DNA of 64,000 bases from an uncultured Candidatus Babeliaceae bacterium (GCA_963704655.1 OY969927.1:448001-512000), one strand, 5' to 3'. Shown: positions 26,485-40,831, counted from the stretch's first letter. Numbers and translations are program-made. Notes: generated by a model not told the origin, from the letters alone.

Positions 26485-26975
26485 CCGTGCACCCTGAGTG
26501 TTCACCGCAGGTGAATGTATCGAAGGGTCGGCATTTAATTTTATATGACTTCCGCTATCCTTCGATACATTCTACTTCGCTAAAGCTTCGTAGAACACTC
26601 AGGATGCACGGGATCACAGAATTTCTTTTTGGCGTACTCCGTAAGCAACTTAAAATCCCCTGTAATAAGTGCTTCTTTTTTCTTTCGGGTCCACCCTTTT
26701 AATTTTTGCTCAAGCTTAAAAGCTTCAGTGCGCTCTTCTAACGCTGCATGAAAAACTAATGTAACAGGCAATCTTGTTGAGGTATATCCGCAAATCATCT
26801 TATTTTGATGGTCTATAACACGCTTTTCAAGATCATCAGTTTGTCCAACATAATAAGAATCATCACTGCACTTTAAAATATAAACATAAAAATATTTCAT
26901 ATAACTTGTTAGACATTAATAATCGCTATCCTTCGATACATTCCCCCGCTGGGGGAACACTCAGGATGCACGGGG
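26485..26975. mobile_element. REP-flanked GIY-YIG cassette A
   Basis: Palindromes at 26485-26527, 26553-26612 and 26924-26975 (CCGTGCA.CCTGAGTGTT-hairpin-AATGTATCGAAGG) surround the nuclease gene. Confidence 0.75.
26580..26900 (-). CDS. Stand-alone GIY-YIG nuclease
   Basis: YVYILKCSDDSYYVGQT.DLEKR...H, EAFKLE..LKGWTRKKKEALI. Confidence 0.93.
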   Translation of the reverse strand: MKYFYVYILKCSDDSYYVGQTDDLEKRVIDHQNKMICGYTSTRLPVTLVFHAALEERTEAFKLEQKLKGWTRKKKEALITGDFKLLTEYAKKKFCDPVHPECSTKL

Positions 26976-26984
26976 ATGGGGAAT

Positions 26985-27434
26985 TTATTCATAAACAGCG
27001 ACTTTAGCAGGGCGCAGGATAACTGTCCCCATGCGATAGCCTTTTTGCAATACCTGTGCAATAGCGCCAGAAACAGCCCCTTCAACTAACGGCGTTTGCA
27101 TAATCGCTTCATGTAAATTTGGGTCAAACTGGGTATTTTCGGTAATTTCAGTAACATTAAAGCGACTAAGTACCTTTTTAAATGCTTTATAGATAAGCTC
27201 AAATGCCGGGTTTGATATATCATGCTGTGCACGGTCAAAATCATCAACAATGTCGATCAATTGCGTCAAAACATCTGCTTGTGCAGCCTGTGACCACTGG
27301 CCACGTTGAGCTTCCATGCGCTTTCTATAGTTATCAAAATCAGCCTGCAAATAGGCATATTGTTGCCTACAGCGCACTAATTCGTCGTTATCGCGCACAA
27401 CTGTTTCTTGGTTAAGATTATTATTTTCTTCCAT
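26985..27434 (-). CDS. grpE: Nucleotide exchange factor GrpE
   Basis: ADFDNYRKR, FDPNLHEAI, QKGY....VILRPAKVAV. Confidence 0.95.
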   Translation of the reverse strand: MEENNNLNQETVVRDNDELVRCRQQYAYLQADFDNYRKRMEAQRGQWSQAAQADVLTQLIDIVDDFDRAQHDISNPAFELIYKAFKKVLSRFNVTEITENTQFDPNLHEAIMQTPLVEGAVSGAIAQVLQKGYRMGTVILRPAKVAVYE

Positions 27435-27501
27435 TAAAGACCTTTATTATGTATGATTTATCAACAATATTTTTATTAGTTTAACAAAAATATGAAAAGT
27501 A

Positions 27502-28383
27502 ATGAAAAAGTATCTATATCTTCTTATTATTGTATGCAGCTGGGCCGCACTGTATAGTTTTAATATCCCTAAGTTTTATCACGGCAGAATATTTTTAGAT
27601 GAACCCCGCTTTTCTGAAAAAGGGCTTTTTACTGCCGACATAACCGTAGCAGGCGGAACCAAGCATTTTAGGGCCAGGGGCTACAAAGGCCATTTAGAAT
27701 TTGCTGAAGCGATTTTACAAGGGTACCTGAATTTTAATAAAGGGATTTTTATTCATGCCTATATCCCCATCAGCTGGGTACGCATGAACGATGTCGAACG
27801 GTATGATCTTTCGGTTAAACCGCTGCCCCATTGCATCAAAAAAACTGATATCTATAGCCCGGGAATTTTTGCCGGCTGGACGGTAAACTATGAAGATACA
27901 AAATATCTTGACTATCTGGATGCAACATTTGAGCTGGGCATGCTTTTAAATACACCGAGACATGCCATAAATATACCCCTTTTTCCTATCGGCTATACAA
28001 CGCAACCTGGCTTTGCAGGAGCTGGTTATTTCTCGATGGGTGCCTATGAATGGCTCACGCTTGGAGCGTATACGCAGGCTATCAGTTTTCAACCTGCAAC
28101 CATCTGGAGCGCAGGAAGCTATCTTAAACTCGATCACCTGATACCTAAATTGTCTTTTATGGTAGCAGTATGCGGCGATGGGCAAAATAAACAGATTGAA
28201 TCTATAAGTCCGTGGCAGATGCTTTCAGTATACCTATCTTTTGAGGTTGACTTGGCCACCGATGATCGCCCTTGGTTGCCGCGCTTTAAAGCGCTCTATA
28301 GCAAGCCGGTTGCCGGGTATAATATCTTAAAGGCGGGGATGGGCGGTTTCACCGTTGGCGTCGACGCTCAAATCATTTTTTAA
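27502..28383 (+). CDS. Putative outer-membrane beta-barrel protein
   Basis: Signal peptide, amphipathic beta strands, C-terminal Phe. Confidence 0.55.
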   Translation: MKKYLYLLIIVCSWAALYSFNIPKFYHGRIFLDEPRFSEKGLFTADITVAGGTKHFRARGYKGHLEFAEAILQGYLNFNKGIFIHAYIPISWVRMNDVERYDLSVKPLPHCIKKTDIYSPGIFAGWTVNYEDTKYLDYLDATFELGMLLNTPRHAINIPLFPIGYTTQPGFAGAGYFSMGAYEWLTLGAYTQAISFQPATIWSAGSYLKLDHLIPKLSFMVAVCGDGQNKQIESISPWQMLSVYLSFEVDLATDDRPWLPRFKALYSKPVAGYNILKAGMGGFTVGVDAQIIF

Positions 28384-28794
28384 AAAATAATTGGTATATT
28401 CCAAGATAACATCAATTGCGTGCGTATACCGCGGATCTTTCTCGAAAAACTCTGGCAATGCTCTAAACCGCGTGTGTAAATGGTTAAAAAGTTGTCCAAA
28501 ACAGTTTATTTGTCTTTCTGCAAGCTGGTACCCACTCTCTTTAAGCTGCTGTACCTCTTTACATAATTTTAAAGTAGCTTGACACAGCTCATCATAAAAA
28601 AGGGCATGGTCCGTGATATGCTCATGCTCAGCCAATTCTAACAGTGACCAAACAGCAAGCGCTTCGTTGCTGACCTGTTTACTTATTACATCGGTGATAT
28701 CGCATAAAGAAAATAAAAAATTTCCCGAGATGAACACTAAAAATAGCGTTGAATGCTTAAAAAAAATTCCTATTAAAAAAACATACCTATTCAT
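28327..28794 (-). CDS. Hypothetical protein
   Basis: 155-aa ORF with hydrophobic N-terminus; overlaps the convergent gene end. Confidence 0.5.
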   Translation of the reverse strand: MNRYVFLIGIFFKHSTLFLVFISGNFLFSLCDITDVISKQVSNEALAVWSLLELAEHEHITDHALFYDELCQATLKLCKEVQQLKESGYQLAERQINCFGQLFNHLHTRFRALPEFFEKDPRYTHAIDVILEYTNYFLKNDLSVDANGETAHPRL

Positions 28795-28915
28795 ATTTTT
28801 CTCATTTTTATATAAGTTATTACTTTCAGTATCGCCGAAAAATATTTAAATAGTCAATCAAACAAAGACTATTGCGGCGCAATGCCCTATTGTGTTATTT
28901 TGTATAGTAACAAAT

Positions 28916-28944
28916 AAAAAGGCCCGGAAATTCCGGGCCTTTTT
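28916..28944. terminator. Terminator downstream of ssb
   Basis: AAAAAGGCCCGGAA-a-TTCCGGGCCTTTTT. Confidence 0.8.
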
Positions 28945-28987
28945 AAGTTTTTAAGAATTAAAGAAGCTAACATCACTTTCAATTCCC

Positions 28988-29016
28988 AACCCTTCGACTA
29001 CGCTCAGGGCGAGCGG
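28988..29016. repeat. Solo REP-like palindrome
   Basis: AACCCTTCGACTACGCTCAGGGCGAGCGG. Confidence 0.85.
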
Positions 29017-29055
29017 TACTAGGAGGTCGTGAGTTATCAACAAGAAATTATGTAA

Positions 29056-29514
29056 CTAAAATGGTAATTCGTCATCAAATGGTGGTTCGTCTTTAAAGAC
29101 AGCGGCACCTTTAGTAGTTGCTCCAGTTGTTGGTGCAGAAGCATCAGAAAAACCTTCCATAGAAGTTGTCTCTGCTGCTTGTCCAGTACTAAGAAAGACA
29201 ACATTTTCAGCCATAATAGAATGTTTGCTGCGCATTTTGCCATCGGTAGCATCTTTCCAAGAATCAAACTTCAATCTGCCTTCGATAAGTACCGGTCTGC
29301 CTTTTTGCAAATACTGCGCACAGTTGTCTGCTTGAGGTCCCCAGACTACGATATCAACGTAACAAACTTCTTGAACAACGGCACCTGTTTGTCTGTTTTT
29401 ATATTGACGGTTAGATGCCAAGCTCATGCGGCACACATTTGCAGCGCCAACTTGTTTTAATTCTGGGTCACGGGTTAAGTTACCCACCATAACTACTTTA
29501 TTATATCCTGCCAT
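29056..29514 (-). CDS. ssb: Single-stranded DNA-binding protein
   Basis: NKVVMVGNLTRDPEL; acidic tail DDELPF. Confidence 0.97.
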   Translation of the reverse strand: MAGYNKVVMVGNLTRDPELKQVGAANVCRMSLASNRQYKNRQTGAVVQEVCYVDIVVWGPQADNCAQYLQKGRPVLIEGRLKFDSWKDATDGKMRSKHSIMAENVVFLSTGQAAETTSMEGFSDASAPTTGATTKGAAVFKDEPPFDDELPF

Positions 29515-29516
29515 GC

Positions 29517-29891
29517 TTATGTTCCTTTTAAAAAGTTAAGAAGTTTTGTTAGATGATTTAAATTTTTTTGCGCTTCTGCCACCATGGCATGAGCCTCTTG
29601 CACACTTTGCTGTAATGCCTTGTGCGTAGCGCCAGAAAAAGAGCCTTTGGTGTCACCGTCAACAAGTTCCCGCATGCGATGCAAAAGCTGCTGCTGCGCC
29701 TGGGCCAAAAGCTGAATCTGCTCGGTGATTAAGTGCGCCAACTCTTCAAGTAAAACTCCAAGTTCTTCTTTAAGATGCCCAGAAGTCTTATGATACAAGG
29801 ATTTTTTAGAAACCACAAAAGTTTCTTCAGAATTTATCGGCATGCAAGAAAACATGGTGATAATAATTGCAAAATTAGTTACACGATTCAT
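29517..29891 (-). CDS. Hypothetical helical protein
   Basis: Tightly packed in the mnmA-pgsA-ssb run; signal-like N-terminus. Confidence 0.6.
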   Translation of the reverse strand: MNRVTNFAIIITMFSCMPINSEETFVVSKKSLYHKTSGHLKEELGVLLEELAHLITEQIQLLAQAQQQLLHRMRELVDGDTKGSFSGATHKALQQSVQEAHAMVAEAQKNLNHLTKLLNFLKGT

Positions 29892-29905
29892 GATAATTAT
29901 AAGAT

Positions 29906-30457
29906 TTACGGTTTATACACAATACGATATCCAACTTTAACATAATCGATAAGTGCATACAATGTAACCAGAGTTACTAGTATGGGCACAGCCGTTAAAA
30001 AAGTGGGAATCTGTAGTTCAGTATACCGCGTAAAAAAAAGAAGCAAACAGTAAAATACTTGAAATACCATGGCAACTTTGCCAGAAATGCGTGCCGCCGA
30101 CGGTTTATAATTGCACCAGGCCATTATAGTTGCACCAACAAACATAAGTATCTCTTTTGCCCAGAGAAAAATAATAAACCATGCAGGAACAATACCAGCA
30201 TACTTATACCAAAGCACCGTAAACGTACTCAGTATAAATAGTTTATCGGCTACCGGGTCAAGTAGCGCACCAAGAGCAGACTCTTGGTTAAACTTACGGG
30301 CAATATAGCCGTCAAGCACATCCGAAAATGCAGCTACGGCCGCCACGAAAGCCGCCAATAAAAAATAATTATTAAGTAATAGATAGATAATAGGCACAAC
30401 TAAAATAATGCGCGCGATAGTTATATACGTTGCAAAAGTTATTACAGGAAGCTTCAT
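29906..30457 (-). CDS. CDP-alcohol phosphatidyltransferase (PgsA/cardiolipin synthase-like)
   Basis: DVLDGYIAR....S.LGALLDPVADK signature. Confidence 0.92.
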   Translation of the reverse strand: MKLPVITFATYITIARIILVVPIIYLLLNNYFLLAAFVAAVAAFSDVLDGYIARKFNQESALGALLDPVADKLFILSTFTVLWYKYAGIVPAWFIIFLWAKEILMFVGATIMAWCNYKPSAARISGKVAMVFQVFYCLLLFFTRYTELQIPTFLTAVPILVTLVTLYALIDYVKVGYRIVYKP

Positions 30458-31503
30458 GAAATTATTCCAGAAGCAACACAGCGGTCACCAGAATAAAGCA
30501 CGGCAAACTGCCCTGCTGCGATACCTTGGTCCTGCTCACTTAAAACTATATGTGCACGATTATCCGGAAGATAGGTAATAGTTGCCGGAATTTTTTTTGG
30601 CCCATGACGTAACTTTACCAAGAACTCTGACTTTTTATCTTCACCTGAAAGCCAGGCAAGATCTTCAACCTCAAACGTGTCCCGCTGCTTATCGGGCTCA
30701 TAATATTTTTTAGAGATATACACCGTATGGGTAGCCAAATCTTTTGACACAACATACCAAGGTCCACCAGCAAGCCCAATTCCCTGGCGCTGGCCAACTG
30801 TATAAAACCAAGCACCCTTATGTTTGCCCAAAATCGATTCTGTTTCAAATTCAACTAATTTTCCAGGATGCTCTCCAAGATGAAATTGCACAAACTCAGA
30901 AAATTTAAGTTTGCCTAAAAAACAGATCCCTTGAGAATCCTTACGGGCCTTATTGGGTAAATCAGCAGCATGCGCATAGTCGCGCAACTCGGGTTTTGTC
31001 ATACCCCCGATAGGGAAAAGCGCTTTTTGTAACTGTTTTTGTGAAAGACGGGCAAGGAAATAGGTCTGATCTTTTACTGCATCGGGTGACTGGTACAAAT
31101 AAGTAACCCCGTCAACTACCTGGGTTTGCGCATAATGGCCGGTAGCTATGGCATCAAATTGATCCGCAAACAGCTCATAAAAAGCACCAAATTTTACTTG
31201 CTGATTACACATGATATCTGGGTTTGGGGTTCGCCCCTTTTTTATCTCAGAAAGAGTATAAGAGACCACTCTGTCCCAATACTGTTTTTGAAAAGAAACA
31301 ACTTCAAGTTTAACATTAAGTTTTTCGCAGACAGCACGAACATAAACAAGATCTTCTTCCCAGGGACAAGTTCCCAGGAAAGCAAGTTCATCTTCTAACC
31401 AGATTTTAAGGTAAAAGGCGGTAACGGTATGCCCCTGCTGCACGAGCTTGTGCAAAGCAACAGAGCTATCCACCCCACCAGATATAAGCATTGCGATATT
31501 CAT
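30454..31503 (-). CDS. mnmA: tRNA 2-thiouridylase MnmA
   Basis: SGGVDSSVA, TPNPDIMCN, ATGHYA, KDQTYFL, DSQGICF; likely start at ATG 31503. Confidence 0.96.
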   Translation of the reverse strand: MNIAMLISGGVDSSVALHKLVQQGHTVTAFYLKIWLEDELAFLGTCPWEEDLVYVRAVCEKLNVKLEVVSFQKQYWDRVVSYTLSEIKKGRTPNPDIMCNQQVKFGAFYELFADQFDAIATGHYAQTQVVDGVTYLYQSPDAVKDQTYFLARLSQKQLQKALFPIGGMTKPELRDYAHAADLPNKARKDSQGICFLGKLKFSEFVQFHLGEHPGKLVEFETESILGKHKGAWFYTVGQRQGIGLAGGPWYVVSKDLATHTVYISKKYYEPDKQRDTFEVEDLAWLSGEDKKSEFLVKLRHGPKKIPATITYLPDNRAHIVLSEQDQGIAAGQFAVLYSGDRCVASGIIS

Positions 31504-31631
31504 AGTGCTTTTAGTATAGCAGATTATGCAAAAAAGACGAACCACGACATAATTGAAGTATTGCAAATAGAAATTTATATAAACTATACTTAAAGTAAAT
31601 AGTTAATTATAAAAACAAAAGGGGCACTCAT

Positions 31632-32393
31632 ATGATAAATTGGCACCATTTAATTACTCTGGGTTTATTGTTAATGCCCCTGCTGCAAGCAATCGAAGTC
31701 CCCATTGTGCCGGATATTAATTATCTGCATCAAAGTAAGGATATGGTAAATAATGCATTATTAAACAAGCAACCGGTACCATCTGAAAAAGAACTTGCAG
31801 ATTTACGTGACTACCTGGTTAAAATTGCATTTCATATGACGCCTGCAACCCAAAATGATCGAAAAATACTCAATCTAGCAAAATATATGTTAGCGTTCAT
31901 GATGATAAATGGCTTGGGTGGCCCTCTATATCCTGATGATGCAGTTACCATGCTAGAAGAGATTCTTAACAGCTATTCTCATAATCCAAACGATTTTGAT
32001 GACTACCTACAAGAGAATTTCCTAAAAAAGGGCATCGCTCATCTTACTCATGCAATTGAATTTCATGTGGTGGACAATTGGTATGCGGCACGTCTAACTT
32101 TAGCACACTTCCTGATGAAAAGAGGCTTACCTGAAGACATTGAAAATGCAATAATAGCATTAAACGATATCATTATGCCCCTTCCAGAAAAAGAAATAGA
32201 CATAGCACTTATCAACAGGGCAAAAATCGATCTCGCAGATATATATCTCAGATTATTAAAAAATCCAACCAATCATCAAAAATGGGAAGGCTACTCAAAC
32301 GCTCAATTTGTAAAAAATTACTATGAGCATAACCGTAGCGGCGTTTACGAAGATGATTACCAAAAAGCGCTTCAGTTCTTGGATGCCATATAA
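31632..32393 (+). CDS. Hypothetical secreted helical-repeat protein
   Basis: Signal peptide; Sel1/TPR-like helices. Confidence 0.6.
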   Translation: MINWHHLITLGLLLMPLLQAIEVPIVPDINYLHQSKDMVNNALLNKQPVPSEKELADLRDYLVKIAFHMTPATQNDRKILNLAKYMLAFMMINGLGGPLYPDDAVTMLEEILNSYSHNPNDFDDYLQENFLKKGIAHLTHAIEFHVVDNWYAARLTLAHFLMKRGLPEDIENAIIALNDIIMPLPEKEIDIALINRAKIDLADIYLRLLKNPTNHQKWEGYSNAQFVKNYYEHNRSGVYEDDYQKALQFLDAI

Positions 32394-32420
32394 AAGCAAA
32401 GCTCCACGTAAAAATAATTA

Positions 32421-32449
32421 TTGCAATTTGAAATATTTAAATATATAAT
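32421..32449 (+). promoter_or_regulatory. Sigma70-type promoter upstream of a structured RNA / argS leader
   Basis: TTGCAA-17 nt-TATAAT. Confidence 0.6.
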
Positions 32450-32455
32450 AAAAAT

Positions 32456-32549: not shown

Positions 32550-32644
32550 TATCTCCACATGGACAGTTTTTCATCTTCATGCTACTTTTTAATAAACAGT
32601 TTTTTTAAAAAAATAATGCGCGTAAGCGCACCAAAAGTAATTTC

Positions 32645-34285
32645 ATGAACAGTCTCAATATTCTTATTCAAGCATTTAAAAATCATATTATTCAGTTATA
32701 CCCAAGCGTAAGCATTGCCTGCGACGTTACCCTTAATGTTGATCCACAACGTCAACAATTTGGTGATCTTTCTTGTAATGCAGCAATGCTTTATGCAAAA
32801 GAGCTTAAAGCAAATCCACGCGCTATTGCACAACAGATAATTCAAGATTTTAAACACCCATTAGTAAAAAATGTCGAAATCGCAGGCCCCGGTTTTATTA
32901 ATATCACCGTTACCGATAGTTTCTTTCCCCAACTTCTTACGGAACTGCAAACGCAGGGTGACAATTTTTTTAAACTCGATAAAGATTATTCTTTTAAAAA
33001 ATTTAATATAGAGTTTGTCAGCGCAAACCCAACGGGCCCTTTACATCTCGGGCATGGCCGCGGTGGCATTATTGGCGATGTTCTTGGTACCATTTTACGC
33101 TTTCTGGGCCATACCGTTACTAAAGAGTTTTATATCAATGACGCGGGTAACCAAATAGAAAAACTCGGAGCATCATTTAAAATTCGCTGCCAACAAGAGC
33201 TTGGATATTCTGTAGAAATTCCTGAAGATGGTTACCATGGTGAATATCTTAAAGAACTGGCACAACAGGCTCATGCTGAACTCGGCGATAAACTGGCAAC
33301 ACAACCAGATTCTTTTTATGCTATCTACGCAAAAGAATATTTATTACAAAAAATCAAAGAAACTCTTGCAGCCTATGGCATCGTTTTTGATGTCTGGTTC
33401 TCAGAAAAAACATTACACAATTCTGGCGCAATTACCAAAGGATTAGAGATTATCAAAAAAAATGGTTATCTCTATGAAAAAGATGGTGCCGAATGGCTGA
33501 AGTCAACTGAATTTGGCGATGACAAAGACCGTGTCTTAAAAAAGGCTACTGGCGAGCTGACCTATGTTGCTGCAGATGTTGCTTATTTAGAAAATAAAAT
33601 TGAACGCGGCGCAGATAAACTCATCATAATTTTAGGACAAGACCATCACAGTTATGTAGTACGTCTTAAAGCCGTATTACAAGCGCTTGGCAAAGATCCG
33701 AATATGCTTGATGTTATTTTATATCAACTTGTTACCATTAAAGAATCTGGCCAACAAGTGCGCCTTTCAAAGCGTGCAGGCAAAATAGTTTCACTTGAAG
33801 ATATTACTGAAAATGTCGGCAAAGATGTGGCACGCTTTTTTTACTTACACAGAAAAGCTGATGCACATTTAGAATTTGATATTGCCCTTGCACTTTCACG
33901 CACAGAAGAAAACCCGGTGTATTATATTCAATATGCCTATGTTCGCACACTCAGTATGCTTGAAAAAGCAGAATCACTTTCTATTAAAGATATCACGTGC
34001 GCAGATGCGGAACATATTACAGAAAAAGAAGCACTCTTAATTAAAAAAATAGTAGCATTAAAACTGTTACTTGAAGATATTTCTCAGCATTATCAAACGC
34101 ATTTATTAACCTATTATGTTCATGATCTTGCACAACTGTTTTCAACCTATTATGGCAGCACCAAAGTTATCGATACCAATAATATTCCCGTAACCCGCGC
34201 ACGGCTTTTAGTTGTTATGCAATTACGTGATACCTTTAATCTCTGCCTACGCCTTCTTGGCGTTGGAACACCTGACAAGATGTAG
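32645..34285 (+). CDS. argS: Arginine--tRNA ligase
   Basis: EFVSANPTGPLHLGHGR, LSKRAG, NPVYYIQYAY.R. Confidence 0.97.
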   Translation: MNSLNILIQAFKNHIIQLYPSVSIACDVTLNVDPQRQQFGDLSCNAAMLYAKELKANPRAIAQQIIQDFKHPLVKNVEIAGPGFINITVTDSFFPQLLTELQTQGDNFFKLDKDYSFKKFNIEFVSANPTGPLHLGHGRGGIIGDVLGTILRFLGHTVTKEFYINDAGNQIEKLGASFKIRCQQELGYSVEIPEDGYHGEYLKELAQQAHAELGDKLATQPDSFYAIYAKEYLLQKIKETLAAYGIVFDVWFSEKTLHNSGAITKGLEIIKKNGYLYEKDGAEWLKSTEFGDDKDRVLKKATGELTYVAADVAYLENKIERGADKLIIILGQDHHSYVVRLKAVLQALGKDPNMLDVILYQLVTIKESGQQVRLSKRAGKIVSLEDITENVGKDVARFFYLHRKADAHLEFDIALALSRTEENPVYYIQYAYVRTLSMLEKAESLSIKDITCADAEHITEKEALLIKKIVALKLLLEDISQHYQTHLLTYYVHDLAQLFSTYYGSTKVIDTNNIPVTRARLLVVMQLRDTFNLCLRLLGVGTPDKM

Positions 34286-34338
34286 TCAAGAGCAAAATAA
34301 TATTAACGAAATATAACTAAGCTTTCATCCTCAAAAGT

Positions 34339-35047
34339 GTGTCACCCTGATACTTCGACTGGTGTGTAAACGCACTATTTTTGCTTAGTACTAAAGACCA
34401 GTTGAACTTGCCTGCCTGCCGCCGTTTCATTCTTATGCTTCGACTTGCCTTTAGTATTGAGCTTGTCGAAATATCAGCACGTGGGTTTACTCCTGAGCCT
34501 GACGAAGGGCTCGCTCATCCTGATACTTCGACTAACGCTCAGCAGTAAAGGCTCGCTCATCCTGAGCTTGTCGAAGGGTTAGCGCGAATATTTAAATTAT
34601 ATTTAATAATAAAAATGTTATAATTAATCTAAGTTTAAATTTTATAAAGTGTAAGAAAATGTCGGATCAAGTTTTTTATTTATATATCCTACAATGTAAC
34701 GACCAATCATATTATGTTGGCCATACTGATGATATCGAAAAGCGTATTGCTGATCATGCTGCCGGTCTGTGTGGTTATACTTCAAAAAGATTACCTGTAA
34801 AATTAATTCATATTGATCAATTTCAAGCGCGGGACGAAGCATTTATTGCTGAACATAAAATAAAAGGCTGGACTAGAAAGAAGAAAGAGGCTTTTATGCA
34901 AAAAAAATTTGATGAATTAATTAGGTTATCTAATTTTAAAAAAGAAATTATTTAAACTATATACTTTACGCTAATTCGCTAACCCTTCGACAAGCTCAGG
35001 ATGAGCGAGCCTTTAGTACTGAGTTTATCGAAGTATCAGGGTGACAC
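34339..35047. mobile_element. REP-flanked GIY-YIG cassette B
   Basis: Left arm 34339-34584 and right arm 34977-35047; perfect 39-bp inverted repeat 34546-34584/34977-35015; outer ends GTGTCACCCTGATACTTCGA also inverted. Confidence 0.8.
34659..34955 (+). CDS. Stand-alone GIY-YIG nuclease
   Basis: YLYILQC.D.SYYVGHTDDIEKR...H, EAFIAEHKIKGWTRKKKEA. Confidence 0.93.
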   Translation: MSDQVFYLYILQCNDQSYYVGHTDDIEKRIADHAAGLCGYTSKRLPVKLIHIDQFQARDEAFIAEHKIKGWTRKKKEAFMQKKFDELIRLSNFKKEII

Positions 35048-35115
35048 CTTTAGCGCCACAAGAGCTTAGTACTCCCTACATAAACAAATGGGGTTCTATA
35101 ATACTTTTTTATTAA

Positions 35116-36477
35116 CTAGTTTTGCTGAGTATGATCAAATACTTTTACTGGCTGATATTCACCATGCATTCCGCATAATGCGTGATAAAAATGCGCAACA
35201 TAGAGTATTGGAACCTGCCACTGAATAGCACGGTAGCGAGCGCACATAAGCATTTGATAGCGCATATAATCACGCTTGAGCCAACTATCGTTACAGAATG
35301 CAATTATAGAAGTATTCTGCTGAAGTTCGTGGTCTGGGTAAGTATTAAAAAACAGTTCTGAGCAAATATAGGGCACTATTTTTAAATTTTTGGTAATCTG
35401 CCAAAAGGGGCGCCTGCGGGTGCTTGGGTGTATGCCGATAAAATTTTTAAAAAAATATGCATGTGCCCCACGTTCAGTAAGTGCCATTGCATGCCGTTTA
35501 TCAAATAAATCAATCAAAACACCATCATGAATCCAATAAACGGTATTTCGATATTTGCCATTATCCCATCTAAAGCCGCCAGTAAGTATGGTAACCGACT
35601 TACCAAGCTGTTCTTGGTTTAAAAGAGCAACAACCTGTGGCTCACCGGGTAAAATCGGACACCGAATGGCAGTTTCATGAAAAAGAATCATATCACTTTC
35701 AGGGTACTGCTTTAAAAGCGCTTTACAATAATCACGAATCGCTCTTCCTGTATGCATAACAGAATCATGAGCATTAAAATATTCACGCCCACAGGCAATA
35801 GTAGTATGGTTAATAATATGCGCTCTATGCGTATGCGAAATTATGATACCCATAAGCCACACGCCCACAAAAAACAGAACTGCTAGCCAGTAATATCTTC
35901 CCCAGCAAATGGCAGCGCTTATAAACGCCTGGGTAGCGATAAAAATAAATAATAATAAACTTGAACCGATTTTAGGCAACCAAAACAACATGCCAGAATA
36001 TTCTACTAAGGGGACCAGTGGGTTAAAAAGTAGATACCCTTCAACTGCGCCAAGCATAAACAAAGACCCTCGTTCAAGAAACAAGAAAAATAACCAGGTA
36101 AAAATAGCAGCGCAAAATAAACGTACACCTGGTGATTGCGTAATAAAGCGTAGCGATATAAGCAAAAAAAACCAGCTCAAGCCATAACAATAGGCTACGA
36201 GTAAAACCAATACCGGTGGAATAAGTTTAAAAAAAATATTACCAGATCCGCAGCAATAAAGTCCCTCTGCAATAGCCCAAAACTGCAAAGAAAAAGCAAT
36301 GCCAGACCAAATTACTCCATGGAAAATCGTTACTTTATCATGAATGATAAGATAAAAAAGTGGGATTAAAAAAATGCATGCGGCCCACCAAAAAAATTGT
36401 GGCCATAAAAAGGGCATGATATAAAGACACGAGCTTATACAACACAAGTAAAAACCATCTGCATTACAATATTTCAT
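35116..36477 (-). CDS. lnt: Apolipoprotein N-acyltransferase-like protein
   Basis: N-terminal TM bundle plus nitrilase-fold E-K-C triad (FHET, DKRH, ICSE) and NDSW motif. Confidence 0.75.
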   Translation of the reverse strand: MKYCNADGFYLCCISSCLYIMPFLWPQFFWWAACIFLIPLFYLIIHDKVTIFHGVIWSGIAFSLQFWAIAEGLYCCGSGNIFFKLIPPVLVLLVAYCYGLSWFFLLISLRFITQSPGVRLFCAAIFTWLFFLFLERGSLFMLGAVEGYLLFNPLVPLVEYSGMLFWLPKIGSSLLLFIFIATQAFISAAICWGRYYWLAVLFFVGVWLMGIIISHTHRAHIINHTTIACGREYFNAHDSVMHTGRAIRDYCKALLKQYPESDMILFHETAIRCPILPGEPQVVALLNQEQLGKSVTILTGGFRWDNGKYRNTVYWIHDGVLIDLFDKRHAMALTERGAHAYFFKNFIGIHPSTRRRPFWQITKNLKIVPYICSELFFNTYPDHELQQNTSIIAFCNDSWLKRDYMRYQMLMCARYRAIQWQVPILYVAHFYHALCGMHGEYQPVKVFDHTQQN

Positions 36478-36485
36478 GGTAATTA

Positions 36486-36520
36486 AAAAAAAAGGGTAGA
36501 GAAATTGATTTCTCTACCCT
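36486..36520 (-). terminator. Rho-independent terminator
   Basis: AGGGTAGAGAAAT-tg-ATTTCTCTACCCT with a T-tract on the minus strand. Confidence 0.75.
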
Positions 36521-36558
36521 ACCAAATTGAGTACTATTAATTAAATAAAATTCTTTTT

Positions 36559-37212
36559 TTATTTAACATCGGTCCATTTCCACAAGTCTTTATTTGATTC
36601 ATCCTGTAAAACTAAAGCCCCATTTGCAACTGTCAAAAGTATATTCATAGAGTTACACGCAATGCCAGAACCTCCAAGACCAAAGCTATGGTAATAGGTT
36701 TTAGTGGTCTTAGTTGCAGGCCGAGTACTATACGCATTACCGCCTAAAGTGGTAGTATATTTAAACTCAATACGCTTAAAACATACTGGGTAACCCAACT
36801 GCGAATTAAGGGCAGCTTTGGTAACTTCTTCTGGAATAAGGCCCTCTGATAGTTCCTTCATGCCTTTTCCTAACACTTCACCAGCTGCCTCAACGGACAT
36901 CTTTGATATCATACCTAAACGATCTTTTACCGCACAGCTATGGAGTACCAAGAGATTCCCTTTAGGAATTTCAAAATCAACTTTTTGGTCATCATATCCT
37001 GCTAAAGCAAGATATACTGTCCCACCAATAGCTTGATCTGAAGTATTACGAATGGACATTTGCCATCCCTTATTATCACTATCTTGGCAAGGTTCCATCG
37101 CATCTATGTAATAACCATCTTTAGTTTTTAACATATTTGCTTCTGCATGCAAAATTTCGCATGAAGCGCTTAAAAGTAGTATTAATAATACATAAAAATT
37201 ATAGTTTTTCAT
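36559..37212 (-). CDS. Hypothetical secreted protein
   Basis: Signal peptide; Cys pattern shared with the two upstream genes. Confidence 0.7.
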   Translation of the reverse strand: MKNYNFYVLLILLLSASCEILHAEANMLKTKDGYYIDAMEPCQDSDNKGWQMSIRNTSDQAIGGTVYLALAGYDDQKVDFEIPKGNLLVLHSCAVKDRLGMISKMSVEAAGEVLGKGMKELSEGLIPEEVTKAALNSQLGYPVCFKRIEFKYTTTLGGNAYSTRPATKTTKTYYHSFGLGGSGIACNSMNILLTVANGALVLQDESNKDLWKWTDVK

Positions 37213-37595
37213 TAATGCTTCCCTTCAACTAATTTAAACTGTTTACTGTTACCAGATGCTGGAAAAATCGTTCCTTGGTAATCTCCACATAACATAGAAA
37301 AACCTGTACTTGGTAATGAAACCTCACCTACTGTATCACCAGAGTTGACAGAAACTTCATAAACATATTCACCAGCTTTAATGGTTAGCTTATTCACACA
37401 ACAAGCACCGGTCTGAAATGTAAAAGAAGCGTTCGGTGCAATGGCACCAGAAGGTTGCACATTAGAGCAAACAAATTTAGAAATCTCTAAAAATATCGTG
37501 CCAGGGGTTTTATTATAAAAAGTATAACTATACCCAACTATCTCTGTTGCCATGCCACAAAAGAGCATGAGTAGAGAAATTATTATTTTTTTCAT
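37212..37595 (-). CDS. Small secreted beta-rich protein
   Basis: AAGGAG RBS; signal peptide; YTFYNKT, CC and LC motifs. Confidence 0.7.
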   Translation of the reverse strand: MKKIIISLLMLFCGMATEIVGYSYTFYNKTPGTIFLEISKFVCSNVQPSGAIAPNASFTFQTGACCVNKLTIKAGEYVYEVSVNSGDTVGEVSLPSTGFSMLCGDYQGTIFPASGNSKQFKLVEGKH

Positions 37596-37619
37596 TTTTT
37601 TACTCCTTAATTTAAATAA

Positions 37620-37985
37620 TTATTCAACTAATAAAATTATGAGACCATTTTCATCATATTGTGCCGTTATGTTAAGATCCCTACAAGCCAAATCAGCACC
37701 TGTTGTAGGAATATTACTCCACCCTGGTTTAGTAGCTATTTTACCCAACCTAGCTGTGGTCATTTCAAAACCATCCAAACAATAGATCCCAGTGCCCCAT
37801 TCAATAGTTTTGCCTGGAGCGATATTATCTTGCGAATTCTTTCCAGACCATGCCGCTGACATGGTTACATTTTTTATTGTTTCCTTGAGCCCATTTTTAA
37901 ATTTATAGTTATAAGCTTGGGTATGCGCACCCATCATAAGAGCACATAAGACCACAAAAGCCTTAACTTGACGGTTATTTAACAT
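37620..37985 (-). CDS. Small secreted beta-rich protein
   Basis: AAGGAG RBS before ATG 37985; signal peptide; YKFKN, YC and AC motifs. Confidence 0.7.
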   Translation of the reverse strand: MLNNRQVKAFVVLCALMMGAHTQAYNYKFKNGLKETIKNVTMSAAWSGKNSQDNIAPGKTIEWGTGIYCLDGFEMTTARLGKIATKPGWSNIPTTGADLACRDLNITAQYDENGLIILLVE

Positions 37986-38244
37986 AAAACTCTCCTTGTT
38001 TTTTAATAAAAACTTATTTTTCCTGTAGTACCATGAGTACCATGTCATTTTAAGCATATATATAAATATTTATATTAGTCAATATATATTAAATAAATAC
38101 ATCTTTTATAAGCCCCTTTAAGGTGAAAATACAGGTTTGCGCATTAAATTTATTGACAAATCAGATTAAAATATAGGATCCTGATAATGTATAGGTTTAA
38201 TATAATTAAAATAATTAAAGTAAAAAAAATAAAGGAAATATGGT

Positions 38245-38721
38245 ATGAAAAATACTATTTTACTCAAAGGTGCGCTCGCACTTACTATTATAACAACAGG
38301 TTTGTTACACGCTGGCGCTACGACACAATTAATAGTTAATAAAGCTATTGATCTTGGTACGGCACCTGCTGTAAAAGTTGTATGTGATGCATATGGCAAA
38401 CAAGGTGTTCAGGTAGCTAAAGGTATGAATTCAACGGTAACTGGATTAAAAGATACTGCTAAAAAAGTCTGTTGCCGATTCTCGGGTTTCAGAAAAGATC
38501 ATCCAAATGTTACAAGAGATGTATTTGATGGCTGTAAGGGTATTGAAATTGACAATGCACCTTCTGAAGAAGACGCATGTGCATTTGTTGCGATAGGTGG
38601 AAGCTTACTTACCAATTTACCTAAAGCTGTTAAATCAACCTTAGGCGATCGCTGTTGCATATATGAAGATGTAATGTCAGAAAATCCTAAAGCTGCAAAA
38701 TCGCTCGGATGCGAAATATAA
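38245..38721 (+). CDS. Secreted Cys-rich repeat protein
   Basis: Signal peptide; two repeats C..~20..CC..(H/N)P..C. Confidence 0.7.
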   Translation: MKNTILLKGALALTIITTGLLHAGATTQLIVNKAIDLGTAPAVKVVCDAYGKQGVQVAKGMNSTVTGLKDTAKKVCCRFSGFRKDHPNVTRDVFDGCKGIEIDNAPSEEDACAFVAIGGSLLTNLPKAVKSTLGDRCCIYEDVMSENPKAAKSLGCEI

Positions 38722-38821
38722 TAGATTAATTTATGGCATTATTGACAAATTGAATTAATTTGTGCGATACTAAAATTAGATAGTATAATAACTAATATAA
38801 TATAATAAAAAGGAGATCGTA

Positions 38822-39385
38822 ATGAAATTACGTAAAATACAATTAACTCTTGCACTGCTTGTTGCAGCATTAGGCTCACAAGCTCTTTTTGCAGCCACAG
38901 AACCGGCAAATAAAAGTATTATCGATACTTATGCTAAAGGTGTTGAAAATGCACTTAAAGTCGCTGCTGCTAAACCTGAAACTGGTTGTAACGTTATGGG
39001 TACACTTGCTGGTAGATATTTAAAAACAGCTCTTGTAACTCCAGATAACGTTGCATTGGCACAAGTTTATTGCTGTGAAGATGCTAAATTTAAAGATAAA
39101 CATCCTAAAGCTTATGAATCATTGTGCCTTGGTACTTCAACTAATAAAGTTGTAGAAGGTTTAATCGGTAAAGTAGGTGTAGCACCTGCTAAAACTTGCC
39201 CAGTTATCGGTAAACTTGGTAGAACTTTAAATAGTTTAACTGAAGACCAAAAAACAACATTATGTGTAACTTGCGGTGATTTATGGAAAGATAAACACCC
39301 TAAAGCTCGTGAAGTAGTTTGTTCACATATGCAAGAATCAGCTGAAGACGTATTGTCTGAAGAAGATGTTATAGAAGCTGAGTAA
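38822..39385 (+). CDS. Secreted Cys-rich repeat protein
   Basis: AGGAG RBS; two KDKHPKA repeats with flanking Cys. Confidence 0.75.
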   Translation: MKLRKIQLTLALLVAALGSQALFAATEPANKSIIDTYAKGVENALKVAAAKPETGCNVMGTLAGRYLKTALVTPDNVALAQVYCCEDAKFKDKHPKAYESLCLGTSTNKVVEGLIGKVGVAPAKTCPVIGKLGRTLNSLTEDQKTTLCVTCGDLWKDKHPKAREVVCSHMQESAEDVLSEEDVIEAE

Positions 39386-39398
39386 TATTCGTTATCTT

Positions 39399-39432
39399 AA
39401 AAAAGTGGGGGGGTAAAACCCCTCACTTTTTA
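39399..39432 (+). terminator. Rho-independent terminator
   Basis: AAAAAGTGGGGGG-taaa-CCCCTCACTTTTT. Confidence 0.7.
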
Positions 39433-39457
39433 TTATATAAGATCAGAGAGTCACTTT

Positions 39458-40087
39458 ATGAAAAACAAATTCTTATTAAAAAAAATTTTATCTATCCTGC
39501 CACTCATAGCAATTACCAGCATGTCTATTACAGAAATTATGGCAGATGCAGGAATCCCCGCAACGACCCTTAAAAAAGCACTGAATCTAACTGGAGTTGA
39601 CGAAACAACAGGCTGTACATTACTCAGTTCAGCAGGTGAGCTTCTGAAACCGCTCAGTTCAAGTGAAAAAGGTCGCGCATGTGTTACCTGCGGTGACAAT
39701 TGGGCAAAAGATGAGAAAAATAATGGTAAAGCACTTACCGTAGTTTGTGGAAAAACAGGATCCCCAACAGACAAACAAAAAGAAATTTTAACCAGGGCCC
39801 TTACTGATTGTGAACAATTAGCTTTGCTCTATCGCCGCTTTGATTTACTTTCTAAAGATCAACGAGTTCAAGCAGTATCAACCTGCTTTGGTAAATGGGA
39901 CCAACACCCTAAAGCTCGAAACGCTCTTATGAAACAACCAGTTGATCTGGATGAATCAAAAGAAGTAAAAGGTGATTTGCCAACATGGCAGGAAGTCTCA
40001 CAAATGCAAATTCTTGCTAAGGCTGATGCCAAAGGGCAAGTTACGCAAGAGATTACCGAAGAACAATTTAAAGCAGTTATTAAGTAA
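39458..40087 (+). CDS. Secreted Cys-rich repeat protein
   Basis: CVTCGD.W and HPKAR shared with 38822-39385. Confidence 0.7.
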   Translation: MKNKFLLKKILSILPLIAITSMSITEIMADAGIPATTLKKALNLTGVDETTGCTLLSSAGELLKPLSSSEKGRACVTCGDNWAKDEKNNGKALTVVCGKTGSPTDKQKEILTRALTDCEQLALLYRRFDLLSKDQRVQAVSTCFGKWDQHPKARNALMKQPVDLDESKEVKGDLPTWQEVSQMQILAKADAKGQVTQEITEEQFKAVIK

Positions 40088-40171
40088 TACGTTAATTTAA
40101 TTACAACGTATGCTATCATTCTTGCGACAGCCTCGCACGTCTGAAAATAAAAAAAAGTTGATCTTGTCGCC

Positions 40172-40831
40172 GTGTCATCCTTATGCTTCGACTTGCCTTT
40201 AGTATTGAGCTTGTCGAAATATCAGCACGTGGGTTTACTCCTGAGCCTGACGAATGGCTCGCTCATCCTGAGCCTGTCGAAGGGTTAGCGAGCGCTATTA
40301 AATTTATTACTAAAATGATATAATATGTTGATATGTTTAATTTTAAATTTTAATTTTTATCTCGAATGTTAAACCAGAATTTTTTTGTTTATATACTTGA
40401 ATGCAAAGATAAATCCTATTATGTTGGACATACTGATAATATTGAAAAACGTATTGCAGAACACGCTGAGGGTATGTGCGGATACACATTAAAGCAGCTA
40501 CCGGTAAAATTAATTTATATTGAGCAATTTCAAACTCGAGATGAAGCATTTATTGCTGAACATAAAATAAAAGGCTGGACTAGAAAGAAGAAAGAAGCGT
40601 TAATGCAGAAGAGATTTGATGAGTTAATTATATTATCAAATTTCAAAAAAAAATTTCCTGAAACTCGCTAACCCTTCGACAAGCTCAGGATGAGCGAGCA
40701 TTTAGTGCTGATATTTCGACAAGCTCAATACTAAAGGCAAATCGAAGCATCAGGATGAGCGGCGGCGGGCAGGCCCCTGGTACTGAGCAAAATAGTGCGT
40801 TTACGCACCAGTCGAAGTATCAGGATGACAC
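40172..40831. mobile_element. REP-flanked GIY-YIG cassette C
   Basis: Left arm 40172-40292 and right arm 40664-40831, inverted; arms nearly identical to those of cassette B. Confidence 0.8.
40366..40671 (+). CDS. Stand-alone GIY-YIG nuclease
   Basis: FVYILEC.D.SYYVGHTDNIEKR; close paralog of 34659-34955. Confidence 0.93.
   Translation: MLNQNFFVYILECKDKSYYVGHTDNIEKRIAEHAEGMCGYTLKQLPVKLIYIEQFQTRDEAFIAEHKIKGWTRKKKEALMQKRFDELIILSNFKKKFPETR

What the first reader, a model, noticed from the sequence alone, without database searches (positions are those of the whole stretch)
26485..40831. Candidate GIY-YIG/REP system: minimal nuclease genes inside inverted palindromic arms, with solo repeats dispersed across the window
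Seen: three ~100-aa stand-alone GIY-YIG genes (26580-26900, 34659-34955, 40366-40671) are each bracketed by inverted copies of a palindrome with core CATCCTGAG...TCGAAGG. Cassette B has a perfect 39-bp inverted repeat. The same core occurs solo at ~14014, 18864-19012, 21091, 28988, 49880, 50083 and 50147. No transposase or integrase is present in the window. Established: this layout (enzyme gene between inverted REPs, plus dispersed non-autonomous REPs) is that of RAYT/REP systems, whose enzyme is a Y1 HUH transposase. Inference: here a GIY-YIG nuclease fills that role and propagates the repeats. I cannot tell from the sequence whether this has been described already.
Basis: partly seen in the sequence, partly recalled or inferred. 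Interest (0 to 1): 0.9.

Follow-up and report, generated by a model that had tools for sequence, protein, structure and literature searches.

The report
Small nuclease genes framed by hairpins
Three tiny GIY-YIG nuclease genes, each framed by inverted hairpin repeats that also lie scattered through the genome, look like selfish insertion cassettes closely akin to the Ssn nuclease and hairpin system described in 2025.

Summary
Three intact 98-106 aa stand-alone GIY-YIG genes (Pfam E 1e-14 to 4e-17) each sit between inverted hairpin repeats. The 1.3-Mb genome holds two more such cassettes and at least 119 hairpins of three sequence classes.

The idea is already in print. Chenal et al. 2025 (PMC11893778) described single-domain GIY-YIG "Ssn" nucleases flanked by hairpin repeats. 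These enzymes cut the hairpin strand as ssDNA, and the authors compared them to RAYT/REP.

This window differs in three ways:
- The proteins are only 37% identical to a canonical Ssn-type gene found in a relative, and score higher against UPF0213 structures.
- The published repeat search motif hits 0 of 62 hairpins here and 0 of 61 homologous loci from many phyla. Those loci instead share a conserved TGAGCYTGTCGAA loop.
- There is direct evidence of insertion, which I did not find in the paper's main text. Congeners have empty sites for four cassettes and most solo hairpins. Two cassettes carry long target duplications of 22 and 48 bp.

That the nuclease itself spreads the repeats remains inferred.

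The parts
26431..26479 (-). Relic copy of the grpE 3' end. It is the left member of a 48-bp direct duplication flanking cassette A.
   Evidence: Local alignment with 26982-27030: 43 of 48 identical, score 71, reached by 0 of 500 shuffles. Both copies translate to the same 14 residues plus stop, and all 5 differences are synonymous.
26485..26535 (+). Variant (TA-type) hairpin: CYGAGTR, inner stem, GTATCGARG. It is the outer arm downstream of gene A.
   Evidence: Inverted-repeat pairs I1-I4; pattern match at genome 474494-474525; folds with an inner stem.
26559..26611 (-). TA-type hairpin overlapping the last codons of gene A. With 26485-26535 it forms an inverted doublet.
   Evidence: genome 474560-474602.
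26580..26900 (-). GIY-YIG nuclease gene A, 106 aa.
   Evidence: ORF; PF01541 E 1.1e-14. On the protein tree it groups with other TA-flanked genes, L004 and L009.
26921..26973 (-). TA-type hairpin upstream of gene A, with the loop motif on the gene's coding strand.
   Evidence: genome 474931-474964.
26982..27030 (-). Functional grpE 3' end, the right member of the 48-bp direct duplication.
   Evidence: The grpE ORF is 26985-27434.
34286..35115 (.). Cassette B as an insertion between convergent argS and lnt.
   Evidence: In G003, G004 and G005 the two genes abut (gaps of 14-27 bp against 847-898 bp here).
34339..34584 (+). Left arm of cassette B, an array of several hairpin modules ending in the CGCTCATCC-TGAGCTTGTCGAA-GGGTTAGCG unit.
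   Evidence: It is 123 of 132 identical to the left arm of cassette C.
34659..34955 (+). GIY-YIG nuclease gene B, 98 aa.
   Evidence: It is 77% identical to C, with dN 0.12 and dS 1.22.
34977..35047 (-). Right arm of cassette B, an inverted copy of the left arm.
   Evidence: I1, I2.
40090..40880 (.). Cassette C as an insertion between a small ORF (39458-40087) and the 3' end of mutS.
   Evidence: In G004 the flanks lie 8 bp apart, against 791 bp here.
40172..40292 (+). Left arm array of cassette C.
   Evidence: I1-I4.
40366..40671 (+). GIY-YIG nuclease gene C, 101 aa.
   Evidence: E 4.4e-17. Tyr, Tyr-Gly, Arg, His and Glu are invariant in alignment A1.
40667..40831 (-). Right arm array of cassette C; it starts at the stop codon.
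14006..14046 (-). Solo hairpin just downstream of dprA.
   Evidence: Also present at the matching site in G003.
18864..19012 (.). Two diverged or compound solo hairpins.
   Evidence: Read directly. Not matched by the strict patterns.
28975..29012 (-). Solo hairpin (loop TGAGCGTAGTCGAA) upstream of ssb.
   Evidence: Absent at the matching site in G003.
49861..49915 (+). Solo hairpin directly after a tRNA gene.
   Evidence: tRNA at 49788-49860; hairpin. Present in G004, absent in G003.
50064..50118 (+). Solo hairpin directly after a second tRNA gene.
   Evidence: tRNA at 49991-50063; hairpin. Absent in G003 and G004.
50147..50195 (+). Solo hairpin of the third class (GTGGTGAGC...TCRAA), the class that flanks the fourth cassette elsewhere in the genome.
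   Evidence: Absent in G003 and G004.

Best explanation
Each gene is the core of a small selfish cassette. A hairpin repeat with its loop motif on the coding strand comes first, then a roughly 100-aa single-domain GIY-YIG nuclease gene, then the same hairpin inverted. The host is probably a member of the Babeliales (Dependentiae).

The nuclease belongs to a widespread family, with homologues in at least eight phyla. It is a relative of the Ssn ssDNA nucleases.

By analogy with Ssn, it most likely binds its own hairpin when the DNA is single-stranded and nicks beside it. The hairpin has a conserved TGAGCYTGTCGAA loop or internal loop and a covarying stem. Because the arms are inverted, the two nicks would fall on opposite strands at the outer edges of the cassette.

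Cassettes and gene-less solo hairpins have inserted repeatedly into intergenic DNA and gene junctions in this lineage. Some insertions duplicated 22-48 bp of target, which keeps both neighbouring genes intact.

Shown: the anatomy, the family-wide link between nuclease and hairpin, stem covariation, insertion polymorphism, long duplications, and purifying selection on the genes.

Inferred: ssDNA hairpin binding and cleavage by these particular proteins, and that their nicking is what drives insertion and spread through host replication and repair.
For: **Anatomy and copies**
- 5 close paralogues in the genome, 4 intact and 1 with a stop, each tightly flanked by inverted hairpins.
- 119 hairpins by three patterns, with 0 in the reversed-genome controls.

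**Family-wide link**
- Flanking inverted repeat in 59 of 75 loci from other phyla, against 3 of 66 displaced controls.
- Loop motif on both sides in 36 of 61 loci.
- Orientation rule: upstream arm '+' only in 29, both in 17, '-' only in 4. Downstream arm '-' only in 24, both in 14, '+' only in 4.
- Hairpin type clusters on the protein tree: 11 changes against 18 for shuffles, and 0 of 200 shuffles are as low.

**Structure**
- The three pairs next to the loop are 86-96% Watson-Crick across 179 units. C-G, G-C and T-A alternate, and pairing collapses when the register is shifted.

**Mobility**
- Cassettes B, C, A and the one at genome 767 kb are absent from syntenic sites in congeners.
- Solo hairpins are absent at 13 of 15 resolvable sites in G003 and 15 of 23 in G004.
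- Target duplications: 22 bp perfect at 767 kb, single-copy in 5 of 5 congeners; 48 bp at cassette A.
- 11 of 80 loci have direct repeats of >=12 nt outside the hairpins, against 0 of 80 in the control.

**No other mobiliser found**
- No Y1_Tnp, rve or DDE_Tnp_1 in the genome.

**The genes are functional**
- dN/dS is about 0.1 between B and C, and catalytic-type residues are invariant.

**Biochemical precedent**
- Ssn nucleases cut ssDNA next to their hairpin, and not dsDNA or RNA (PMC11893778, Results sections 8 and 10).
Against: - No assay exists for this subfamily. Identity to the canonical Ssn-type gene is only 37%, and the hairpin differs from the published motif.
- The hairpins in this AT-rich genome fold no better than shuffled sequence.
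- Hairpins show no replication-strand bias (33 against 29), which an ssDNA lagging-strand mechanism might have produced.
- 7 of 31 genomes without a close nuclease still hold 5-38 hairpins, and 1 of 10 genomes with it holds only 1.
- Cassettes B and C show no target duplication.
- All 5 differences between the two copies of the cassette A duplication are synonymous. This fits import or allele replacement by recombination better than a simple staggered cut followed by decay.
- A hydrolytic nuclease alone does not explain how DNA is joined at a new site.
Confidence: 0.6

Rival explanations
1. This is a domesticated host function rather than a selfish element. As proposed for SsnA in Neisseria meningitidis, the nucleases would cut incoming or exposed ssDNA at the hairpins. 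That would modulate natural transformation and recombination, and the hairpins would be kept as genomic marks.
For: - SsnA lowers integration of hairpin-bearing transforming DNA about 5-fold (PMC11893778, Results section 9).
- This genome has DprA (window 14150-14773, minus strand), a PilB-type ATPase and a ComEC-like match.
- The genes are under purifying selection.
- The synonymous-only differences in the cassette A duplication point to recombination with foreign alleles.
Against: - Distribution among relatives is patchy: 10 of 41 genomes have a close homologue.
- There are several divergent paralogues with different hairpins in one 1.3-Mb genome, and pseudogenes in G000 and G001.
- Insertion polymorphism at many sites looks like turnover of a parasite.
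- Hairpins spread over tandem, convergent and divergent spacers in proportion to their length.
- The ComEC-like match contains 2 stops.
Confidence: 0.2
2. The hairpins are an independent repeat family spread by some other means. The GIY-YIG gene would be a homing-type parasite of them. It would cut at hairpins and be copied by repair into hairpin pairs, without itself spreading the hairpins.
For: - Hairpins occur without the nuclease in 7 of 31 genomes.
- G022 has 143 core hairpins, mostly inverted doublets about 72 bp apart with unrelated spacers. No intact gene flanked by that hairpin type was seen in the loci examined.
- The arms of B and C are 93% identical although the genes have dS 1.22. 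This suggests arms and genes have separate histories or undergo gene conversion.
Against: - No alternative mobiliser was found.
- The cassette at 767 kb entered a naive site between two overlapping genes that holds no hairpin in 5 of 5 congeners.
- The same loop motif travels with the protein family across phyla, which is hard to explain if the hairpins spread on their own.
Confidence: 0.12
3. The hairpins are ordinary regulatory structures such as terminators or mRNA stabilisers, and their position around the nuclease genes is incidental.
For: - Most copies are intergenic (47 of 62 core copies).
- Some follow tRNA genes directly.
Against: - There is no depletion in divergent spacers: 11 of 47 intergenic copies, against 27% of intergenic bases.
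- Folding energy is weak and there is no Rfam match.
- Copies are inverted on both sides of the gene in 59 of 75 loci across phyla.
- Copies are present or absent between close relatives.
Confidence: 0.03

Closest known systems
Ssn nucleases with NTS/SRM hairpin repeats (Chenal et al. 2025, Nat Commun 16:2388, PMC11893778)
   Same: - A single-domain GIY-YIG protein of about 94-106 aa.
- A gene framed by inverted hairpin repeats that are also dispersed in the genome.
- Several nuclease and hairpin pairs with their own specificities.
- Enrichment in host-associated bacteria.
- The authors themselves note the IS-like layout.
   Different: - Only 37% identity to a canonical-type gene in relative G032 (94 aa, Tyr6/Tyr17/Glu64, flanked by hairpins that fit the published motif).
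- The window protein scores 58 bits against UPF0213 protein BH0048, where the canonical type scores 27.
- The published SRM search motif hits 0 of 62 hairpins and 0 of 61 loci.
- Here the loop is conserved and the stem varies.
- The paper's main text has no match for 'target site', and I saw no empty sites in the sections I read. Its supplements could not be read and may bear on this.
RAYT / REP-REPIN-BIME systems
   Same: - A single gene flanked by inverted palindromic repeats.
- Many gene-less copies, inverted doublets (seen in G022) and compound arrays.
- Patchy distribution.
   Different: - The enzyme is a hydrolytic GIY-YIG nuclease, not a Y1 HUH transposase.
- No PF01797 match in the genome.
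- Several paralogues per genome, each with a different repeat class.
IS200/IS605 'peel and paste' elements
   Same: Recognition of imperfect subterminal hairpins in ssDNA is the likely mode (inferred).
   Different: - IS200/IS605 ends are not inverted, both cuts are on one strand, and no target duplication is made (recalled, not from a call).
- Here the arms are inverted and long duplications occur.
GIY-YIG homing endonucleases (I-TevI type) and the GIY-YIG endonuclease of Penelope-like retroelements
   Same: - A GIY-YIG catalytic domain in a mobile element.
- Penelope insertions are reported to carry variable-length target duplications (recalled, not from a call).
   Different: - There is no DNA-binding domain, no intron or intein context and no reverse transcriptase.
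- The only NCBIfam hit is weak (group I intron endonuclease, 16-20 bits against a cut-off of 56).
UPF0213 / YhbQ-type small GIY-YIG proteins (PDB 1zg2, 1ywl)
   Same: These are the closest solved structures by sequence (profile E 6e-21 and 7e-20). They have the same size and a single domain.
   Different: I know of no repeat association for them (recalled), and I did not examine their loci.

Membership tests
GIY-YIG nuclease superfamily (PF01541) | Match to the catalytic domain above the curated cut-off | tested here: met
   54.9, 53.9 and 62.6 bits against a cut-off of 22.6.
GIY-YIG nuclease superfamily (PF01541) | Conserved Tyr (GIY), Tyr-x-Gly (YIG), Arg and Glu | tested here: met
   Y9, Y19, G21, R29, H33 and E65 are invariant in 9 sequences. 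The assignment of catalytic roles is by analogy.
Ssn nuclease family (Chenal 2025) | Single-domain protein of about 94 aa with no separate DNA-binding domain | tested here: met
   98-106 aa, and the GIY-YIG domain covers residues 4-76.
Ssn nuclease family (Chenal 2025) | Gene flanked on both sides by inverted hairpin repeats of 20-50 nt that recur in the genome | tested here: met
Ssn nuclease family (Chenal 2025) | Flanking repeats fit the published SRM search motif | tested here: not met
   0 of 62 core hairpins. There are 4 hits genome-wide, against 1-5 in shuffles. 0 of 61 homologous loci.
Ssn nuclease family (Chenal 2025) | Top CDD hit cd10448, and blastp E<1e-10 to N. meningitidis SsnA | not testable with these tools
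   CDD and that sequence are not on hand. Proxy: 37% identity and 47.8 bits to a canonical-type gene, and a higher score against UPF0213 structures.
Ssn nuclease family (Chenal 2025) | Strand-specific cleavage of ssDNA beside the hairpin, with no activity on dsDNA or RNA | not testable with these tools
   This needs purified protein.
RAYT/REP system | Y1 HUH transposase (PF01797) between the repeats | tested here: not met
   No PF01797 match in the genome, while the control search found it in 6 of 14 known genomes.
Insertion sequence in the broad sense | Occupied and empty sites between relatives | tested here: met
   Cassettes A, B, C and the one at 767 kb. Solo hairpins are absent at 13 of 15 sites in G003 and 15 of 23 in G004.
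Insertion sequence in the broad sense | Target-site duplication of fixed length | tested here: inconclusive
   22 bp and 48 bp; about 12-36 bp in three other phyla; none found for B and C. The lengths vary.
Known structured RNA families (Rfam 15) | Match to a covariance model | tested here: not met
   Only two tRNAs pass at gathering score. Nothing falls on the repeats at E<=1 in 34200-41000.

The most novel reading that the evidence does not exclude
The window would show a second, undescribed branch of small GIY-YIG nucleases, closer to UPF0213 than to canonical Ssn. It has its own hairpin class (conserved TGAGCYTGTCGAA loop, covarying stem) and is present in at least eight phyla.

It would behave as a truly mobile, IS-like element that lacks any transposase. 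It inserts at gene junctions with long, variable duplications (12-48 bp) that rebuild the ends of the neighbouring genes. It also leaves gene-less hairpins and doublets behind.

This would be the first genomic proof that Ssn-like cassettes move, and it would point to a nick-and-repair route of transposition.
Probability: 0.4. Interest if true: 0.75.

Novelty: new variant of a known kind. Interest (0 to 1): 0.5.

Why it matters
The general idea is published: a minimal GIY-YIG nuclease paired with its own hairpin repeats. As a discovery of principle, the finding is therefore a rediscovery.

It adds three things:
- A protein branch and a hairpin consensus that the published search motif does not detect. 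The published counts of nuclease and repeat pairs may therefore be too low.
- Clean empty-site evidence and long target duplications, which turn 'looks like an IS' into a testable claim of mobility by a hydrolytic nuclease.
- Several cognate nuclease and hairpin pairs side by side in one tiny genome. This is a natural panel for studying specificity, and the published work points out that such enzymes are wanted as sequence-specific ssDNA cutters.

Tried and rejected
**Tools and searches that gave nothing**
- Rfam has no family on the repeats.
- NCBIfam gives only a sub-threshold hit to the group I intron endonuclease family.

**Literature searches**
- 'GIY-YIG' with 'repetitive extragenic palindromic': 0 papers.
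- 'GIY-YIG' with REPIN (9 papers, where the word-start match seems to have caught an author's name) or with 'miniature inverted-repeat': nothing relevant.
- COG2827 / YhbQ / UPF0213: only a note on three small paralogues in Caulobacter.
- The repeat's own 14-mers: 0 papers.
- SsnA or Ssn: only Chenal 2025 and papers that cite it.

**Tests that came out negative**
- The published SRM motif does not fit.
- There is no replication-strand bias for the core hairpins (33 against 29). The TA class shows 20 against 9 and the third class 11 against 17, which I treat as no clear signal.
- Folding energy is not significant.
- No target duplication was found for cassettes B and C.
- There is no single homing site: neighbours of related cassettes are a WD40 protein, a RadA-like protein with Ogg, and ThrRS with DUF2207.

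**Method failures and limits**
- A first motif-based gene finder caught only 14 of 93 loci. I replaced it with an HMM search.
- Many hairpin and relative comparisons stayed 'unresolved', because only 4 contigs of G003 and G004 were fetched and repeats cross-match.
- No structure prediction, complex prediction or read mapping was run.

Full report
**1. What is in the window**

The window is part of a single-contig genome of 1,298,077 bases with 38% G+C. Three ORFs of 106, 98 and 101 aa lie at 26580-26900 (-), 34659-34955 (+) and 40366-40671 (+). All three match the GIY-YIG catalytic domain well above Pfam's cut-off, and the domain fills nearly the whole protein.

Each gene is framed by inverted repeats.
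- Cassette B has a 47-nt pair at 96%, whose last 39 nt are perfect, plus an outer perfect 20-mer.
- Cassette C has nested pairs of 77, 54 and 22 nt.
- Cassette A has pairs of 22 and 29 nt.

The core word CATCCTGAG occurs 7 times, against 0.17 expected.

**2. The genome as a whole**

An HMM search of all six-frame ORFs finds five close paralogues: the three in the window, an intact one at genome 767,555-767,908, and one with an internal stop at about 375,500-375,780. It also finds three distant small GIY-YIG ORFs.

The two extra cassettes are also framed by perfect inverted repeats, but of other sequence classes.

Three patterns count hairpins, each with 0 hits in the reversed genome:

| Pattern | Hits |
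|---|---|
| CCTGAGC-N2-6-TCGAAGG (core) | 62 |
| Variant with an inner stem: CYGAGTR...GTATCGARG (TA type) | 29 |
| GTGGTGAGC-N2-6-TCRAA (third class) | 28 |

- 47 of the 62 core copies are intergenic by a crude gene call, although only 11% of the genome is intergenic.
- They spread over tandem, convergent and divergent spacers roughly in proportion to spacer length.
- They show no replication-strand bias (33 against 29).

**3. The same pairing in other organisms**

A scan of one genome per species found 577 relatives of the protein. The best 80 loci come from Sphingomonadales, Beta- and Gammaproteobacteria, Dehalococcoidia, Thermodesulfobacteriota, Nitrospiraceae, Myxococcota, a cyanobacterium, Campylobacterota, Acidobacteriota, Ignavibacteriota and Babeliales.

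- In the 75 loci with enough flank, the 250 bases upstream align to the reverse complement of the 250 bases downstream with a score >=30 in 59. Displaced control windows reach that score in 3 of 66. The median scores are 49 and 19.
- The arms share the window's own core, CCG(C/T)TC..CC-TGAGCYTGTCGAA-GG....
- The loop motif lies within 500 bases in 48 of 61 loci, and on both sides in 36.
- The upstream arm carries the motif on the coding strand and the downstream arm on the other strand: 29, 17 and 4 upstream against 24, 14 and 4 downstream, for expected orientation only, both, and opposite only.
- Across 179 units from 58 loci, the three base pairs next to the loop are 86-96% Watson-Crick with C-G, G-C and T-A alternating. 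Pairing falls from 0.57 to about 0.3 when the register is shifted, and no partner shuffle reaches the observed value.
- Hairpin class clusters on the protein tree: 11 changes against a shuffled mean of 18, and 0 of 200 shuffles are as low. Kin share labels, so this shows clustering, not co-evolution.

**4. Does repeat number track the nuclease?**

Among 41 genomes of the same order, 10 have a close homologue (E<1e-20). The table sums the three patterns.

| Genomes | Hairpin totals | With >=5 hairpins |
|---|---|---|
| 10 with a close nuclease homologue | 1, 5, 13, 17, 26, 38, 81, 87, 119, 197 | 9 of 10 |
| 31 without | 17 zeros, 7 with 1-2, then 5, 10, 12, 14, 22, 26, 38 | 7 of 31 |

The link is strong but not absolute, and the genomes are not independent.

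One relative, G022, has 143 core hairpins. Most are inverted doublets about 72 bp apart, with identical arms and unrelated spacers of 25-30 bp.

**5. Evidence of insertion**

- **Cassette B.** It lies between convergent argS and lnt. In G003, G004 and G005 these genes abut. In G001 the same site holds a cassette with a different hairpin class and a gene broken by four stops.
- **Cassette C.** It is missing from G004, where the flanks are 8 bp apart against 791 bp here.
- **Cassette A.** Together with a neighbouring small gene, it is missing from G003 and G005, which have gaps of 42 and 5 bp.
- **The 767-kb cassette.** It is a 451-bp insertion exactly at the overlap between the stop of a PilB-type ATPase gene and the start of the next gene. 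It carries a perfect 22-bp direct duplication of that junction, and all five congeners have a single copy and no cassette.
- **The cassette A duplication.** It is flanked by a 48-bp direct duplication of the grpE 3' end, 43 of 48 identical, reached by 0 of 500 shuffles. Both copies encode the same 14 residues plus stop, and all five differences are synonymous. I cannot explain this by decay of a dead copy. It suggests that two functional alleles met by recombination.
- **Other phyla.** Similar duplications of gene junctions flank cassettes at an hsdM|hsdS junction in a Geobacteraceae MAG, before hsdS in a Sulfuricellaceae MAG, and at the 5' end of pheT in a Chloroflexota MAG.
- **Scan for direct repeats.** In a scan with the hairpins masked, 11 of 80 loci have direct repeats of >=12 nt across the cassette, against 0 of 80 in the control. 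None was found for B and C.
- **Solo hairpins.** They are also polymorphic. Where the matching site could be resolved, they are absent in G003 at 13 of 15 sites and in G004 at 15 of 23. Many comparisons stayed unresolved because I fetched only four contigs.
- **Other mobilisers.** The genome has no match to Y1_Tnp, rve or DDE_Tnp_1, and has only two tyrosine recombinases, both outside the window.

**6. State of the genes**

B and C differ with dN 0.12 and dS 1.22, so the protein is under purifying selection. Their left arms are 123 of 132 identical, far more alike than silent sites in the genes. The arms are therefore either homogenised or constrained.

**7. What is known**

A full-text search led to Chenal et al. 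2025 (PMC11893778). I read the abstract, Results sections 6-10, the Discussion and Methods sections 17-18, and searched the text for 'mobile', 'transpos', 'target site' and other words.

They report the following:
- SsnA of N. meningitidis is a 94-aa single-domain GIY-YIG protein of CDD family cd10448.
- It binds a hairpin repeat (NTS) only as ssDNA and only on one strand, and cuts a few bases upstream.
- It lowers transformation by hairpin-bearing DNA.
- Homologues in many phyla are flanked by related hairpins (SRM): 71% have at least one and 42% have them on both sides.
- The NTS-ssnA-NTS layout recalls insertion sequences and RAYT/REP.

The paper's main text has no match for 'target site'.

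**8. Is the window a member of that family?**

- The published degenerate SRM motif hits 0 of the 62 core hairpins and only 4 places in the genome, the number shuffles give. It hits 0 of 61 homologous loci.
- Three of those 4 hits do look like true NTS-like hairpins.
- A relative, G032, has a 94-aa GIY-YIG gene with Tyr6, Tyr17 and Glu64, the positions mutated in the paper, next to hairpins that fit the SRM motif. I take this as the canonical type.
- Window protein C is 37% identical to it (47.8 bits).
- C scores 58 and 52 bits against the two solved proteins named UPF0213, whereas the canonical type scores 27 bits against one of them.

The window's family is therefore a relative of Ssn with a different hairpin consensus. 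It may fall outside the clade as the paper defined it. I could not run CDD, so this stays open.

**9. How it most likely works**

By homology and layout, each nuclease binds its own hairpin in single-stranded DNA and nicks beside it. With inverted arms, the nicks fall on opposite strands at the outer edges of the cassette.

Insertion leaves long, variable duplications. This fits independent nicks on the two strands followed by repair synthesis better than a transposase with a fixed stagger. The joining step must come from host replication or repair, because a GIY-YIG enzyme only hydrolyses. All of this paragraph is inference.

The main rival is a domesticated role in handling ssDNA during transformation, as in Neisseria. 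DprA, a PilB-type ATPase and a ComEC-like match (with two stops) are present. Turnover, pseudogenes and several paralogues speak for a parasite, but the two readings are not exclusive.

**10. Verdict**

- The new parts are the distinct protein branch and hairpin class, its breadth across phyla, and the genomic evidence of mobility with long duplications.
- I rate it a new variant of a known kind, with interest 0.5.

Noticed in passing
G000:C1:303629-303967 (outside the window); also G000:C1:358007, 423939 and 959051: A truncated GIY-YIG ORF of the canonical Ssn-like type, flanked by a GTCACCCTGAG...CTCAGGGT hairpin. There are also three hairpins elsewhere that fit the published SRM motif. The genome therefore also carries remnants of the canonical system.
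   Followed up: partly
window 49788-50118: Two tRNA genes are each followed directly by a core hairpin whose outer stem starts a few bases after the tRNA 3' end. One hairpin is shared with G004, and both are absent in G003.
   Followed up: partly
L145, L146, L149 (G022): Hairpin doublets have near-identical inverted arms but wholly unrelated spacers of 25-30 bp. In one doublet, 10 bases of flank on each side are also reverse complements.
   Followed up: partly
L026:1361-2010 and L049:1417-1990: In two unrelated proteobacterial-type MAGs the cassette sits just upstream of a type I restriction specificity gene (hsdS), with the junction duplicated. In L026 the gene upstream is hsdM.
   Followed up: partly
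window 36559-40087: A run of five small ORFs, several with signal-peptide-like starts and many cysteines, lies between cassettes B and C. G003 gave no DNA match to 39458-40087 (the only part of the run queried), and there lnt and mutS lie about 1.5 kb apart; G004 matches 39599-40089.
   Followed up: no
window 25758-26297: A 179-aa lipoprotein-like ORF next to cassette A is missing from G003 and G005 together with the cassette. The whole 1.3-kb block may have arrived, or been lost, as one piece.
   Followed up: no
G000:C1:1045948-1046376: The only ComEC (PF03772) match in the genome has two in-frame TAA codons within the matched stretch. DprA (window 14150-14773, minus strand) is intact.
   Followed up: no
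L112 (G004:C1, just before the grpE 3' end): G004 has a TA-type hairpin directly next to the grpE stop, at the place where cassette A sits in this genome. About 1.6 kb of unrelated DNA lies beside it, so the spot may be a recurrent target.
   Followed up: no
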